A stretch of DNA of 64,000 nt, taken from NCBI RefSeq assembly GCF_009914755.1, contig NC_060940.1, one strand, 5' to 3'. A model generated the notes under the pieces. It was not told the origin of the DNA. It saw only the letters and a program-made list of their open reading frames with translations, and ran no database searches. Each line of letters starts with the position of its first letter. The first letter of the stretch is position 1. Below are positions 45,476 through 51,576 of this stretch, piece by piece. The DNA is from the human T2T-CHM13v2.0 reference genome, Homo sapiens. Made by a program: the position numbers and the translations under genes.

Positions 45476-47078
45476 TGACTTCCAAAGGTTTTTAGTTGTA
45501 AATTGAGTCAGAGTTCCCACAACTTGTTTCGCAGGGGTAAGGATAGGTTTTTACCAGGGAATTACTGAGTATTCTTAGTCCATTTGAGTAGCTTTGCTCC
45601 AGGAGGGAAGAAGAAAAAGAAAGAATCCTAGGAAAGGACATCTGTCTCTCAAGAGTCCATTTCCTTTCATCAGGAAAGCAGTATCTTTTCAGGAAACTCT
45701 ACACAGTAGACCTGTTATTATAAAACAGTAAAACACTGAAAAAGTTTAAATTTTTAAACAACATGTTTTTCAGAATGTATCCTCATCTTTAAGCAACACA
45801 TGACTTACGTGTACATGTATACAGACAAACACACACACATCATTTAAGCAACTCAGGTGTTATGAGGGAAAAAACAAGTGTGTATGGGGGGCAGATTTAA
45901 ATCCAGGTGAGTAAATTTGAACACCTACATTAAACCTTCAGTTCTCTATGTTTATAGAATTAAGTTCCACAGCTGATGTAACTGACTTCAGTCTGTAAAG
46001 TCAAGCCTGCCTTGTAGGATCTTATGGGGGTTCCTATTTGTATGTATTCATATTTGGTCAAGCATTTGGAATAATGCCTGGCACATAGTAAGCACTTGGT
46101 GACTTGATTAAAGAAGTCAATGAGGCACCAGGCTTGATCCTTATAGGCCAGGTGAGCAGGGAGGCCCCTTTTCATTCTTTGATGCCTCAGATGAGGAAAT
46201 GCCTGTTGGAGGGGATTTCACACCTTTCAGAAGAAGGCCCCATTGTTCCAGTTGACGCTCGTGGAGACAGGTCTCAGTCAGTAAATGCTTCTTGAATGAA
46301 GCATTAGGTGGTTGGACCAGATCTGTCTTTCCCGTGGGAGGAAAGTGAGATGATTTTAGGTGTTACACAGATGCTTATCATTTTTGTAGTTAGCTATTTA
46401 TTACAGTGTTGTGTTAGAAAATGTTAGGCAGCACCTCAAACCTAAGTATTTTTAAAAAGTGAGTGATTTAAAGACACACTAAATTGAACAGGTGGCATGT
46501 GAATGTCATGGAAACTGAAAGCATTTATGGATTGAAAGAAGACTGGGAAAATCTTTGCGGTCTTTCCAAATCTGAGATGTTTGATTTTTTGAATCTAGGC
46601 TTTGAATATGAAATCAGGATATACAAATAGAAGTGATGTTCTCTGGGTTTTGGGAGCAGAGATGTGTAATGGAAATTGACAGGCAGAACTAGATGCACAG
46701 TGTCATGCAGGGTGCAGAGATAACAGTGTATTAACACTTTGGTGTCTGCTGTGGGCAGCCTTGCATGTGTATGTATTCTCTAACAAAATTGGGAACATCC
46801 TACACATACAATTTTGTGATTAGGTTTGTTCACCTGATACTATAACTCTGTGTTCAGTGTTCCTGCAGAGAAATCTTTGTGCCCATACTTGATTTTCTTA
46901 GGATTAAATCCTAGAAATGGGATTGTGTGGTCATTGTGTACGCATGTGTTTCAGGCCTTTTATACTTGTCATCGCAGTGCCTTGCAGTGTGATTGTGCCA
47001 GTTTAAGGTTCCGGCAGCTTGAGTGCCCTCTTCCCTATCCCTCTCCAAAGCCAAGCTAGATTAAATAATAGTTTTGTT

Positions 47079-47444
<366 letters not shown>

Positions 47445-49876
47445 CTATAAATCCTAAAACTTGCTGCTTGTCTCCCTTCAGAACTCCCATCAGCAGCGCC
47501 CGACAGCACTCTCCTCCTCACTGCCCAACACTGGGTGGCAAATCTTTTCATCTTGGCCACTCTGATAGGCTGGACAGTGAGGTCCTTCTTCCTAGGGCGC
47601 ATGGAAACCTGTTGCAGTCACCTGGGTTTGCGGAGTGGGAGGAGGAAAGTGTTAGGGGCACTAGGAGGTGGGAGCCGGTGGGAGTTGCTGGCTGGGTGTG
47701 TTTGCATTATGGACCCGTGCATCTCACCACTCTCTACCACTGTGCACCACTGTGACCACGGACAGGGTGCTCCTGAGGTCAGTCCCAGATGCCCTCCAGA
47801 CCCTGCGTCCTGAGCCTGCTTCTCCCTCTGGCCTCCTCCCCAGTTTCTTACTGTCCTCCGGCCTCCCTGCCTCCTCTCTGTACTGGAGGCTCAGGTGTGT
47901 TCCCCGAGTCTTTCTGCCTGCCCTTCCTTCTGTCTGGAATGCCTTTTGGACACCTGACTCTCCCATTCTCCAGGGCTCGCCACGGCCATCCCCTTCTGAG
48001 AGAGGCCTCCCCCGTGACCGTCTTCCTCTCTACGAGTCACTGCCTTCATTCCTCATCATCTTGTAATTATCTGCCTCTCCTTTCTCTCCTTGTTTACCAC
48101 TGTACCCCCAGTGCCTAGCACTTGGCAGACACCCACATGTTCCTTGGCTACTCTAGTCGTATTGAACAGTGTAAAGAATCTGGAGGTGAGAGGATAGAAC
48201 CTGCTCTTTATTATCCAAGAGTCCAGCAAGTTATGGCTTCCAGAGGGAGGCAAATTGATCAGGTTTTCAACAGAGCTGCTTAGCAGCGGGGCGAGTGCCT
48301 TCCTTGGGGAACTAGTAGTCAAGCAGTGACTTGATGTTGCTGCCTTGGTTCTTGCACGGGATGTTAGGGTTGATGAGATCATTTCTAAGGTCCCTTCTGA
48401 TCCTTAAAACTGTGGGATGAGTATTCTCATCTGTGGGTTGCTGGGCTACCATTCTTGTTTCAACTGCAGATGTAGCTTTTACCACTAGATGACACTATAT
48501 GATTTCTTTGAAATCAGTGTTTCCCAAACTGCCAACCACACAGAGGAAATACATTTTTCATTGCACTTACACCCTCAACACACACTTGAAACAAAAGTAG
48601 GCTGGGCACGGTGACTCACGCCTGTAATCTCAGCACCTTGGGAAGCGGAGGTTGGAGAATCACTTGAAGCCAAGAGTAAGCATCATAAATGTCTTAATCC
48701 TTACTATATGTAATGCATCCTATTTTTTATTTTACTTGGTTCAACATTTAAAAAAGTAATGCAGGTTTGCAAATGAATTGATTTTATTGTATTAATGGGT
48801 CATGACTAACTGAAAACCATTTTTTTAAGTATATTGTTATAAAACTGTGTGGGTATGCTGTTTTCCTTGGACAGTCTGGGCTTGTATAACAGATCGTGTC
48901 CATTAGTGAGTATTTTCCATGTTTCTGTGGTGAGTTGCTGCATGGAGCAGCTGAACATGTGCTTCCTTTTGGGTGTCTATGGATGGAAGAGGTTGGGAGA
49001 TTGTGCAGAATTCAACACTTATTGTAGTCAGGCCAGAGGTAAGCCTTAGTAGCAGATTTAAAGCTGTATTATTTACTTCTAGAAGCTGAGAGACATGACA
49101 CACCCATACCCTTAATTTCACCTTACTTAGCAGGCAACAAGAAATGGGGGCATTACTCAGGGTATCATTAGGATGCTTTGGGCTGCAAGTAACAGAAGCC
49201 TGACTCAAATTGGCTAAAAGGGTGAAGGCACTTATCTCACAAAATCGATGTTCAGAGGTAGAGCAGTCTGCAGGCCCACAGCAGCTGAGCATGGCCTTCG
49301 GGATCCCGCTTCTTTTCATGAGTCCTCAGTCATCCTAAAGCTGGTTCTACTCATGGTTGCAAGAAGGCTTCCTGTGCTAGATGAAGCCTTAATTCCTTGT
49401 AGTATAGACTGGCTAGAGAGAATTAAGGCTACTGTGGCATTTTCCACATTGTTTTGTTCGTGCTTGCTTTGTTCATTTCTTCCTAGTTTCCCCACTATGA
49501 CCTCCCTAAGAAGAGTGAAATGATTGGCACCTAATACAGAGTCAGGAGAAACACTTGGTTAATTCATGCTGTTTGTCAAGTGTTTCTAAGTCTCCCTTCC
49601 TCTGGGCACAGGCTTTTTCATTTAGTGGAATTAACTGACTAGCTCTGGCCATGAGTTTGCAGAGTGAATAAATGGCTGCACATCTTCTGTATGAAGCATG
49701 AAGTGAGGCTATTTGCTATGTAGGGTCCTGGGAAGTGAATTAGCAATATGAGGGAAGGGAGTGAGAAGGCCCACTGTGGAAAATGTGATGGGTGGTGTAA
49801 CGTGAACATAAAGATGAATGGATGGCTGCGTCTTCGCATGTGTAACAGGGCACTAAATGTGCACTTGGCCTTTTGA

Positions 49877-50089
<213 letters not shown>

Positions 50090-50193
50090 TGACCATCTCC
50101 CTCCCCAACAGCACCTCATCAGCTACCTGAGGTTTTAGGGGTTCATTCTTGAAGGAAGTCGTGGTGTGCTCCCTTTCCAGCTGTGCGCAAAAG

Positions 50194-50741
50194 TGCTTAT
50201 TTCCCCAGATCTTCACCAACACGGTGTGTTATAAACTTGTTTGCAGCCATAAAAAGGAATGAGATCATGTCCTTTGCAGGGACATGGATGAAGCTGGAAG
50301 CCATTCTTAGCAAACTAACAGAGGAACAGAAAACCAAACACCGCATGTTCTCACTCATAAATGGGAGTTGAACAGTGAGAACACATGACACAGAGAGGGG
50401 AACATCACACACTGGGGCCTGTCAGGGGTGGGGGGCAAGGGGAGGGAGAGCATTAGGATAAATACCTAGTGCATGCAGGGCTTAAAAATCTAAATGACAG
50501 GTTGATGAGTGACAGGCCCCAGTGTGTGATGTTCCCCTCTCTGTGTCATGTGTTCTCACTGTTCAACTCCCATTTATGAGTGAGAACATGCGGTGTTTGG
50601 TTTTCTGTTCCTCTGTTAGTTTGCTAAGAATGGCTTCCAGCTTCATCCATGTCCCTGCAAAGGACATGATCTCATTCCTTTTTATGGCTGCAAACAAGTT
50701 TTATAACACACTGTGTTGGTGAAGATCTGGGGAAATAAGCA
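50194..50741. repeat. Near-perfect inverted repeat: arms 50194-50424 and 50510-50741, 85-bp spacer
   Basis: Arms are reverse complements with one substitution and one 1-nt indel by eye; the ORF track gives matching peptides on opposite strands (50197..50412 - and 50522..50722 +). Confidence 0.97.
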
Positions 50742-50830
50742 TATATATATGGCATATATATACCTATGTAACAAACCTGCACATTCTGCACATGTATCCT
50801 GGAACTTAGAGTAAAAAAGAAAAAAAAAAG
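50243..50830 (+). mobile_element. 5'-truncated L1PA 3' end containing the inverted duplication
   Basis: ORF2 C-terminal AAIKRNEIMSFAGTWMKLE, G-rich 3'UTR tract, 'tacctatgtaacaaacctgcac' and an A-rich tail. Confidence 0.9.
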
Positions 50831-51576
50831 AACACAATATCTACTTCCACATTAAAATCACAATAGTTTTTGAAATTTTATTAAATTTAATTAATTCAAA
50901 AAAAAGTATTAATCTTCTTTAATCTGTCATGTGAAAAATGGTATCTTACTGCAATTTTAAAAATGTTTCTCCTATTTATAAGTGACGTTGAGGATCATTT
51001 TCATGTGTTTGAAGCCCATTTAAATATCTTTCACTGTAAACTGTCCCTATCAGGAATCACTTTTTTTTCCCCAATGAGAAAAATACATAAAGCTTTATTT
51101 TTCACATGTGTATTCCTACACTAATTGGATAAATATGGAGAAACTGCTTTATAGTACAGGTATGAGGAGGAGAGTCTCTTAGAATTTACATCAGACTTTT
51201 CCTCTGGTTGGTTGGTTGCCTATGGCTCATCTAGGTGTCTGGACTAATTATGTGGATTTAATTGGGTTTTTCTATAAGGAGACATTCCAAAGGCTTTTGT
51301 ATATTTCAGGCTGAGCATATCTTAGTTTTCACGCCTCTTGTCTGTGTATGTGAATCTTCCCTAAGGATGGAAATTGAGGATTTCTGCCCAGTTGCGCAGC
51401 TTGAGGGTTTTAAGTCTAGAGGACGTGGGTCTTTTACAGCTTTGTTGATGTTCCTCACTGTGGGTGGGAGGGAAAGTGTTGTGAGACCTGGTAATTCTCA
51501 GATGAGGGAGGGCTCAGAGGTGCTGACAGCAGTAGGCCTAGGCTTAGGAGATTTGGCCCTTAAGATTCTTCAACAG

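What the first reader, a model, noticed from the sequence alone, without database searches (positions are those of the whole stretch)
50194..50741. About 230-bp near-perfect hairpin with a G4-motif loop, 110 nt downstream of the weak GC donor
Seen: arms of 231 and 232 bp differ by about 2 positions; the 85-nt loop begins GGGGTGGGGGGCAAGGGGAGGG. The inverted copy includes about 49 bp of non-L1PA flank and is inserted into the L1 3'UTR, which resumes after a small fold-back (tatatatg-g-catatata). It is therefore a post-insertion template-switch duplication, not L1 twin priming. Known: such closely spaced near-identical inverted repeats are unstable, and long perfect dsRNA is a substrate for ADAR, Dicer/Drosha and PKR. 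Inference: recent or gene-converted, perhaps polymorphic, able to flip the spacer, and able to modulate exon-2 splicing or yield endo-siRNAs.
Basis: partly seen in the sequence, partly recalled or inferred. Interest (0 to 1): 0.75.

Follow-up and report, generated by a model that had tools for sequence, protein, structure and literature searches.

The report
Young fold-back hairpin in LCMT1 intron
A 231-base stretch of LCMT1 intron 2 (part old L1 element, part neighbouring DNA) was copied backwards and re-inserted 85 bases downstream, giving a near-perfect hairpin that looks like a recent copying accident of a known type, with no sign of a function.

Summary
The arms are 50194-50424 (231 nt) and 50510-50741 (232 nt), with an 85-nt spacer, one mismatch (G:U in RNA) and one 1-nt indel. 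The RNA fold is -493 kcal/mol (z = -42).

- **Left arm:** 48 nt of pre-L1 intron DNA, then 183 nt of a 5'-truncated old L1 (last 42 ORF2 codons, stop, 53 nt of 3'UTR).
- **Spacer:** the next 85 nt of the same L1 3'UTR. Its G4 motif is an ordinary L1 feature, present in 23 of 29 other copies.
- **Right arm:** sits inside the L1 3'UTR between a 2-nt (TG) and a 4-nt (AGCA) microhomology. Seven nt of TA filler follow before the L1 resumes.

An old paralogue 68 kb upstream has the flank without the L1, so the flank predates the L1. The duplication is therefore not twin priming. Both arms share 9 substitutions and 2 indels private to this L1 and differ at no L1 position. The copy is thus far younger than the L1, roughly 2 My (0.05-12), unless gene conversion keeps the arms alike.

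Best reading: a microhomology-mediated fold-back template switch, probably neutral. Editing, siRNA, splicing effects and polymorphism could not be tested here. It is a long new member of a known kind.

The parts
49993..50084 (+). LCMT1 exon 2; the intron begins GCAAGT at 50085 (GC donor), 109 nt before the hairpin
   Evidence: Hub annotation; sequence read
50194..50241 (+). Left arm, part 1: 48 nt of intron DNA that predates the L1
   Evidence: Collinear with the L1-free paralogue L002 up to 50241. L1 homology starts at 50242 in 11 of 12 alignments. Holds both arm differences
50242..50424 (+). Left arm, part 2: 183 nt of a 5'-truncated old L1. Last 42 codons of ORF2 (50243-50368), stop TGA (50369-50371), first 53 nt of the 3'UTR
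   Evidence: Translation. Match to ORF2p residues 1232-1273 in solved structures, E 1.3e-13. 87-90% identity to 12 other L1 copies. 100% complementary to 50510-50692
50425..50509 (+). Spacer / loop: 85 nt of L1 3'UTR in ancestral (forward) orientation. The G4 motif at 50425-50446 directly abuts the end of the left arm
   Evidence: 91-93% identical to 39 other L1 copies. G4 motif present in 23 of 29 copies at the same place
50510..50741 (-). Right arm: reverse-complement copy of 50194-50424 inserted in the L1 3'UTR. TG (50510-50511) and AGCA (50738-50741) are microhomologies shared with the interrupted L1 sequence GTG-C-AGCA
   Evidence: Other L1 copies read GTGCAGCA at this point in 20 of 29. 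Only the locus itself spans either junction in the genome searches
50742..50748 (+). 7-nt filler TATATAT in place of the 7 L1 bases (AACCACC in 16 of 29 copies). With 50749-50762 it forms a 10+1+10 palindrome
   Evidence: TATATATATGG found in 0 of 29 other copies
50749..50829 (+). L1 3'UTR resumes (ATGGCATATATATACCTATGTAACAAACC...) and runs to the poly(A)
   Evidence: other L1 copies match from 50749 on at 98-100%
50830..50910 (+). About 80 nt between the L1 poly(A) and the resumed ancestral sequence, ending in A8. It is a piece of an interspersed repeat and probably a 3' transduction carried in with the L1
   Evidence: Absent from paralogue L002. Copies of the repeat on C3 and C9 at 92% and 88%. 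The transduction reading is inference

Best explanation
**History.**
- An old, 5'-truncated L1 3' end inserted in sense orientation into LCMT1 intron 2.
- Much later, a growing DNA 3' end inside the L1 3'UTR (ending ...GAGTG, 50511) left its template. This happened either at a stalled replication fork or at a resected break.
- It re-annealed through 2 nt (TG on CA, 50423-50424) to DNA of the same polarity 87 nt behind it, immediately next to the L1 G-rich tract.
- It copied backwards through 183 nt of L1 and 48 nt of the upstream intron flank.
- It returned to the original template through a 4-nt microhomology (AGCA), with a 7-nt TA filler.

**Class.** In the four-point template-switch model this is a 3-2-1-4 event.

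**Product.** A 231/232-nt inverted repeat with the 85-nt L1 stretch as a single-copy spacer.

**Consequence (inferred).** In LCMT1 pre-mRNA it must fold into a 231-bp stem with one G:U pair and one bulge. The stem is removed with the intron and is a likely nuclear ADAR substrate. I judge it a young, selectively neutral or slightly harmful structural mutation, not a functional element.

**Shown versus inferred.** Shown: the anatomy, the order of events, the microhomologies, and that the copy is young relative to the L1. Inferred: fork versus break, a role for the G4, and all RNA-level consequences.
For: 1. **The repeat is real** and far beyond chance.
2. **The flank predates the L1.** Paralogue L002 carries window 50137-50241 and then, after its own Alu, window 50919-51300, with no L1 between. 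L1 homology starts at 50242 in 11 of 12 alignments.
3. **The insertion point lies in the 3'UTR.** ORF2 ends at 50371.
4. **The junctions show microhomology.**
   - In 29 other L1 copies the sequence runs ...GGTGCAGCAAACCACCATGGCA... (GTGCAGCA in 20 of 29).
   - The window has GAGTG[232-nt inverted copy ending AGCA]TATATAT-ATGGCA.
   - This gives TG and AGCA microhomologies and the loss of about one L1 base.
5. **Timing relative to the L1.**
   - The L1 part of the arm has 9 substitutions and 2 indels that differ from at least 10 of 12 other copies. All are present in both arms, and the L1 parts of the arms differ at 0 of 183 positions.
   - The spacer is equally diverged, with 4 substitutions and 1 indel in 85 nt.
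6. **Absolute age.** One substitution in 2 x 231 nt gives about 2.2 My (95% 0.05-12) at 1e-9 per site per year, or 4.3 My (0.1-24) at 0.5e-9.
7. **Fit to the known mechanism.**
   - 3-2-1-4 events that create single inverted repeats are one of the two majority patterns in great apes (PMC7954356, passages).
   - Template switches create thousands of intronic hairpins in primates (PMC10710096, abstract).
8. **A second case.** A smaller event of the same design sits in another L1 3'UTR (L041: 46-nt arms, 98%, 160-nt spacer).
Against: - No orthologous pre-event sequence (ape or other human haplotype) could be examined, so the ancestral state is inferred from other L1 copies and from a paralogue.
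- At 232 nt the copied piece is much longer than catalogued short-range events: median 12, maximum 128 in 1,503 gold-standard events, though that search was limited to about +/-100 nt (PMC7954356).
- Gene conversion between the arms could keep an older duplication looking young.
- The direction of the one substitution is ambiguous. Paralogue L002 has A, like the right arm. The chrX family copy L004 has G, like the left arm.
- A fork and a break-repair origin give the same product.
- The 'neutral' verdict rests on the absence of evidence for function, not on a test.
- The G4 hot-spot idea got no support: no other place in the genome has the 14-mer before the G tract followed within 300 nt by its reverse complement.
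Confidence: 0.8

Rival explanations
1. Break repair, not replication. A double-strand break in the L1 3'UTR was resected. The left 3' overhang snapped back on itself through TG/CA next to the G-rich tract and was extended for about 230 nt. It then joined the other end through AGCA (synthesis-dependent microhomology-mediated end joining, the pathway usually ascribed to polymerase theta).
For: The same junction features fit: 2-nt and 4-nt microhomologies, almost no loss of L1 sequence, and a short filler. Resection would expose exactly the strand that served as template. Large human inverted duplications with a single-copy spacer are ascribed to fold-back of a broken end (PMC3907307, abstract).
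Against: From my own knowledge and not checked here, templated insertions of this repair pathway are usually a few to a few tens of nt, so 226 nt would be long. Nothing in the sequence separates this from a fork-based switch.
Confidence: 0.3
2. Insertion-time event. During L1 integration, second-strand synthesis primed from the upstream target DNA folded back and copied the new L1 plus 48 nt of flank. The arms have since been kept identical by gene conversion.
For: The top strand at integration is continuous from flank into L1, so a fold-back at that moment could include the flank. Closely spaced inverted repeats can convert each other. No target-site duplication was recognisable, which hints at an untidy integration.
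Against: Copies of this L1 family differ from one another by about 9% (mean identity 0.908 among 12 copies; window against them 0.904). Two arms of insertion age should therefore differ at roughly 20 positions, yet only 2 are seen. The model needs conversion sustained over tens of millions of years.
Confidence: 0.07
3. A functional hairpin. The stem is kept perfect by selection because it yields small RNAs, or a hyper-edited dsRNA, that regulates LCMT1 exon-2 splicing or other targets.
For: The stem is near-perfect and lies in a transcribed intron 109 nt from a GC donor. Template-switch hairpins in introns have given rise to at least 18 human miRNA genes (PMC10710096, abstract).
Against: - The only Rfam match is a plant miRNA family at 28.9 bits against a gathering score of 85.
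- A 231-bp stem is far from the roughly 35-bp miRNA design described in PMC10710096.
- The stem does not include the donor.
- Perfection is explained by youth.
- No paper links LCMT1 to such an element.
Confidence: 0.05
4. Assembly artefact: a chimeric fold-back read built into the assembly.
For: Fold-back chimeras occur in long-read libraries. No second assembly could be consulted, and the junction pattern was absent from the two public collections scanned, which are not human.
Against: - The arms are not identical: there is one mismatch and one indel.
- There is an 85-nt single-copy spacer.
- Both junctions use microhomology.
- The L1 continues in register after the insert.
- An artefact would more likely give a spacer-less perfect palindrome that breaks collinearity.
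Confidence: 0.02

Closest known systems
Short-range template-switch mutations (four-point model of Loytynoja and Goldman 2017, PMC5453318; great-ape survey of Walker et al. 2021, PMC7954356), event type 3-2-1-4
   Same: A fragment copied in reverse complement from nearby sequence of the same locus. The switch points are ordered 3<2<1<=4. The result is one perfect inverted repeat with a spacer and a net insertion. Either an intra-strand or an inter-strand switch is possible, because point 2 lies before point 1.
   Different: The copied fragment is 232 nt, against a median of 12 and a maximum of 128 in the great-ape gold-standard set. Those surveys looked only within about +/-100 nt. The pre-event sequence is inferred here, not observed in a sister species.
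Template-switch-generated RNA hairpins and de novo miRNAs (Monttinen et al. 2022, 2023; PMC8794818 seen in a search listing only; PMC10710096 abstract read)
   Same: A single mutational event creates a perfectly paired stem inside an intron of an expressed host gene.
   Different: The stem is about 6-7 times longer than a miRNA precursor. There is no evidence of processing and no Rfam family.
Fold-back inverted duplications with a disomic spacer (Hermetz et al. 2014, PMC3907307, abstract read)
   Same: An inverted copy separated from the original by a single-copy spacer that marks the fold-back loop, with short homology at the boundary.
   Different: Those are kilobase- to megabase-scale and terminal, and pass through a dicentric chromosome. 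This one is a 232-nt interstitial insertion that returns to the original template.
L1 twin-priming inversion
   Same: An L1 3' end with an adjoining L1 segment in the opposite orientation.
   Different: As I recall the model, twin priming inverts the 5' part of the L1 itself, contains no flanking DNA and arises at insertion. Here the inverted part duplicates the direct part, carries 48 nt of pre-L1 flank, lies inside the 3'UTR, and shares all private mutations of the direct copy.
Long, highly paired endogenous dsRNAs (dsRNAscan survey, PMC11838218, section 10 read)
   Same: An intramolecular, more than 96% paired dsRNA formed by LINE sequence. Such structures are mostly made by inverted LINE elements.
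   Different: At 231 bp it falls below that survey's 300-bp 'long' class (2,018 cases). It belongs to the 31,017 highly paired ones among 5.13 million predictions. It comes from one L1 folded on itself, not from two inverted insertions. It is intronic, so it is not expected in the cytoplasm.

Membership tests
Template-switch mutation, four-point type 3-2-1-4 | A fragment that is the reverse complement of adjacent sequence of the same locus | tested here: met
   230 of 231 aligned positions complementary, plus one 1-nt indel
Template-switch mutation, four-point type 3-2-1-4 | Switch points ordered 3<2<1<=4 on the ancestral sequence, with return to the original template | tested here: met
   Point 3 = 50194, point 2 = 50424, point 1 = 50511, point 4 = the L1 AGCA directly after point 1. 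The ancestral L1 sequence was taken from 29 other copies
Template-switch mutation, four-point type 3-2-1-4 | Pre-event state seen in a closely related genome | not testable with these tools
   No ape or second human genome is held. The paralogue L002 only shows the state before the L1
Template-switch mutation, four-point type 3-2-1-4 | Short range and short length, as catalogued (median 12 nt, maximum 128 nt) | tested here: not met
   The copied fragment is 232 nt, compared with PMC7954356. This limit belongs to the surveys, not to the mechanism
L1 twin-priming inversion | Inverted segment made of L1 sequence only, formed at insertion (features as I recall them) | tested here: not met
   48 nt of pre-L1 flank lie in the inverted copy. 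The arms are identical in the L1 part although the family is about 9% diverged
Known structured RNA or miRNA family (Rfam 15) | Score at or above the family's gathering threshold | tested here: not met
   Only MIR2118 at 28.9 bits against a gathering score of 85, E 0.0048
Long, highly paired dsRNA / candidate MDA5 ligand (PMC11838218 definition) | More than 96% of nucleotides paired | tested here: met
   The stem is continuous except for one bulge
Long, highly paired dsRNA / candidate MDA5 ligand (PMC11838218 definition) | Longer than 300 bp and present in a cytoplasmic transcript | tested here: not met
   231 bp; both arms lie in intron 2 between annotated exons at 50084 and 53920 (hub annotation)
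ADAR-edited intronic inverted repeat | Clusters of A-to-G mismatches in RNA reads | not testable with these tools
   No RNA data available. No paper holds both LCMT1 and 'editing sites'

The most novel reading that the evidence does not exclude
The hairpin is specific to the human lineage and perhaps still polymorphic. Its 231-bp intronic dsRNA is hyper-edited or diced and measurably changes use of the GC donor of LCMT1 exon 2. In addition, the folded L1 3'UTR G-quadruplex set the fold-back point: the left arm ends at 50424 and the G tract starts at 50425. That would make L1 G4s occasional seeds of inverted duplications.
Probability: 0.06. Interest if true: 0.6.

Novelty: new member of a known kind. 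Interest (0 to 1): 0.3.

Why it matters
- **As an example of the mechanism.** This is a clean, fully resolved case of one template-switch event creating a very long near-perfect hairpin (231 bp) inside an expressed human gene. It is about twice as long as the longest event in the great-ape catalogue. It suggests that searches limited to +/-100 nt miss the long tail of this process.
- **As a test case.** If the allele proves to be human-specific or polymorphic, it would be a natural experiment on how cells handle a near-perfect intronic dsRNA next to a GC splice donor.
- **Otherwise.** It is an ordinary, probably neutral, structural mutation. The G4 in its loop is simply inherited from the L1.

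Tried and rejected
- **Two independent inverted L1 insertions:** rejected. The arms share 48 nt of non-L1 flank and all 11 private L1 changes.
- **Twin priming:** rejected for the same reasons.
- **Known RNA family:** only a sub-threshold plant miRNA hit.
- **Structure inherited from elsewhere in the genome:**
  - In the junction-spanning searches only the locus itself covers either junction.
  - The 40 other matches listed for junction 1 (40 of 681 candidates scored) cover only one side of it.
  - The 39 others for junction 2 (40 of 414 scored) also cover only one side.
- **L1 G4 as a recurrent fold-back hot spot:** the 14-mer before the G tract followed within 0-300 nt by its reverse complement occurs only here. 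This was an exact-match search, so older decayed cases would be missed.
- **How rare such L1 hairpins are:**
  - A 16-mer from the ORF2 end occurs 8,921 times in the genome.
  - It is followed within 300 nt by its reverse complement at only 2 loci: this one and chr2.
- **Independent confirmation of the junction:** the junction pattern has 0 matches in genome contigs and in viral contigs. This was expected, because neither collection is human.
- **Target-site duplication of the L1:** none recognisable.
- **Polarity of the two arm differences:** L004 then showed that the substitution is ambiguous. Only the 1-nt deletion is assignable to the left arm.
- **Literature:**
  - LCMT1 with 'inverted repeat': 0 papers.
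  - LCMT1 with hairpin and intron: 1 unrelated paper.
  - LCMT1 with 'editing sites': 0 papers.
  - Two looser searches listed no paper that mentions LCMT1.
- **Sources not available:** The supplementary tables of the dsRNAscan preprint (PMC11838218), which might list this hairpin, were not opened.

Full report
**1.

The window contains one inverted repeat. The left arm is 50194-50424 (231 nt), the right arm 50510-50741 (232 nt), and 85 nt lie between them. The inner 192 nt of the arms are 100% complementary.

The outer part holds the only two differences. One is 50223 G opposite 50712 T, which is a G:U wobble in sense RNA. The other is one extra base in an A3/A4 run.

Fold energies:
- As RNA, 50150-50800 folds at -493.1 kcal/mol. 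Twenty shuffles averaged -189 (z = -42.5) and none folded as well.
- As DNA, the 548 nt fold at -300.7 kcal/mol, z = -43.5 over 100 shuffles.

The 64-kb window has 113 inverted pairs of at least 80 nt within 5 kb. Of the 25 longest shown, the other 24 are 73-88% complementary with spacers of 608-4432 nt. This repeat is of a different kind from the usual inverted Alu pairs.

**2. Anatomy**

L1 boundaries:
- Twelve other L1 copies align to the window over the full stretch. In 11 of the 12 the alignment starts at 50242, and in one at 50240.
- Window 50243-50368 translates to 42 residues followed by TGA.
- Those residues match residues 1232-1273 of L1 ORF2p in solved structures (E 1.3e-13).

This gives the following parts:
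- **Left arm:** 48 nt of non-L1 DNA, the end of ORF2, and 53 nt of 3'UTR.
- **Spacer:** the next 85 nt of that 3'UTR, in forward orientation.
- **G4 motif:** the spacer's GGGGTGGGGGGCAAGGGGAGGG motif is found at the homologous place in 23 of 29 other L1 copies. It is inherited from the L1.

In the other 29 copies the 3'UTR continues ...GGTGCAGCAAACCACCATGGCACATGTATACC (GTGCAGCA in 20 of 29; AACCACCATGG in 16 of 29). The window reads GAGTG, then the 232-nt inverted copy ending ...ATAAGCA, then TATATAT, then ATGGCATATATATACC... to the poly(A).

What this shows about the junctions:
- The first two bases of the insert (TG) and its last four (AGCA) could come from either the L1 or the inverted copy. 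Both junctions therefore carry microhomology.
- Only about one L1 base is lost.
- Seven L1 bases are replaced by seven bases of TA repeat (TATATATATGG occurs in 0 of 29 other copies). This could be a second tiny switch onto the adjacent (TA)n, or slippage.

**3. Order of events**

A paralogous segment lies 68 kb upstream on the same chromosome. It is collinear with window about 45766-51576 at 76-89% identity.

In the paralogue, the sequence matching 50137-50241 runs on into the sequence matching 50919 onward. Only an Alu with its own target-site duplication lies between them. The paralogue has no L1.

So 50194-50241 existed before the L1 arrived, and a copy that contains it must postdate the L1 insertion. 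This excludes both twin priming and two independent L1 insertions.

Between the L1 poly(A) and the resumed ancestral sequence lie about 80 nt (50830-50910) that end in A8. This stretch matches an interspersed repeat on chromosomes 3 and 9. It is most simply read as a 3' transduction. I found no clear target-site duplication.

**4. Age**

Private changes in this L1:
- In the L1 part of the arm, the window differs from at least 10 of 12 other copies at 9 substitutions and 2 indels in 183 nt.
- In the spacer it differs at 4 substitutions and 1 indel in 85 nt (alignment-edge columns excluded).
- All 11 arm changes are present in both arms, and the L1 parts of the arms do not differ at all.

Family divergence: mean identity among the 12 copies is 0.908, and the window against them is 0.904. 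Arms as old as the insertion should therefore differ at roughly 20 sites.

Absolute estimate: one substitution in 2 x 231 nt gives about 2.2 My (95% 0.05-12) at 1e-9 per site per year, or 4.3 My (0.1-24) at 0.5e-9. That is about 4% of the divergence the L1 itself has accumulated. Gene conversion between the arms would make this a lower bound.

Polarity of the two differences:
- The 1-nt deletion is on the left arm, because both L002 and the chrX relative L004 have four positions there.
- The substitution is ambiguous. L002 has A, and L004 has G at what is a CpG.

**5. Mechanism**

The structure is what the four-point template-switch model calls a 3-2-1-4 event (PMC5453318, passages). Together with its mirror type, it is the majority pattern in great apes and creates a single inverted repeat (PMC7954356). 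Point 2 precedes point 1, so either an intra-strand or an inter-strand switch is possible.

At 232 nt the copy exceeds the longest of 1,503 gold-standard events in that survey (median 12, maximum 128). That survey searched only about +/-100 nt.

A resected break with snap-back synthesis would give the same product. Large human inverted duplications with a single-copy spacer are explained in that way (PMC3907307, abstract). I cannot separate fork from break.

A possible role for the G4:
- The left arm ends at 50424 and the G tract begins at 50425.
- An L1 G4 motif strongly blocks polymerases delta and epsilon in vitro, and RPA does not relieve the block (PMC12038398, passages).
- A folded G4 on the single-stranded template could explain why priming occurred at the first free bases beyond it.
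- This is inference from one coincidence. An exact-match genome scan for the same arrangement at other L1 copies found only this locus.

A broader scan used a 16-mer from the ORF2 end. The 16-mer occurs 8,921 times in the genome. It is followed within 300 nt by its reverse complement at two loci only. The second locus, on chromosome 2, is a 46-nt inverted insertion into another L1 3'UTR with a 160-nt spacer. It is a smaller event of the same design.

**6. What it does**

LCMT1 is transcribed through the element in the sense direction. The pre-mRNA must therefore be able to form a 231-bp stem with one wobble pair and one bulge, starting 109 nt after the GC donor of exon 2. The predicted fold leaves the donor outside the stem.

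How it compares with known dsRNAs (PMC11838218, section 10):
- In a genome-wide prediction of 5.13 million dsRNAs, 31,017 are more than 96% paired.
- Only 2,018 are also longer than 300 bp, and these are mostly inverted LINEs.
- This stem falls in the first class and not the second. Being intronic, it should not reach the cytoplasm.

Nuclear ADAR editing is likely on general grounds, but I could not test it.

DNA fragility should be modest. In yeast, widening a spacer from 12 to 100 bp lowered repeat-induced recombination 300-fold (PMC10164571, passage).

Rfam has no family for it: the only hit is MIR2118 at 28.9 bits against a gathering score of 85. The paper library has nothing on it.

I conclude that it is most likely a young, neutral structural mutation.

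**7. Verdict**

Its account of the origin is supported, and its functional ideas remain open. The feature is a long, well-resolved new member of a known class of mutation. Presence or absence in apes and in other human haplotypes is the decisive missing datum.

Noticed in passing
window 45766-51576, against G000:C16:25330439-25340794 (window -27561 to -17206; loci L038, L039, L002): An old partial duplication of LCMT1 (end of intron 1, the alternative exon 47482-47644, exon 2, start of intron 2) lies 68 kb upstream. It is collinear at 76-89% identity and broken up by Alus. No gene is listed there in the hub's table. It served here as an outgroup that lacks the L1.
   Followed up: partly
L041:1477-1728 (G000:C2:123710276-123710527): Another L1 3'UTR carries a 46-nt inverted copy (98%) of its own ORF2 end, 160 nt downstream, in place of a few L1 bases. 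It is a smaller event of the same design as the LCMT1 hairpin.
   Followed up: partly
window 50830-50910: About 80 nt between the L1 poly(A) and the resumed ancestral sequence, with an ATTAAA and an A8 tail. It matches an interspersed repeat on chromosomes 3 and 9 (L036 92%, L037 88%). It is probably a 3' transduction. No target-site duplication of the L1 was recognisable.
   Followed up: partly
window 50085-50090: The intron 2 donor is GC, but the site reads AG|GCAAGT. By the consensus as I recall it, this is optimal at every other position, which is typical of functional GC donors, so 'weak' may overstate it.
   Followed up: no
window 50190-50238, against L004 (G000:C23:46139601-46139650): The 'unique' flank in the arm has an 88% match on chrX. 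It may therefore belong to an old, low-copy interspersed repeat and not be strictly unique sequence.
   Followed up: no
window 50911-50930: TTAATCTTCT is followed by TTAATCTGTC, where the paralogue has a single TTAATCT. This is a small tandem duplication at the 3' edge of the L1 insertion site.
   Followed up: no
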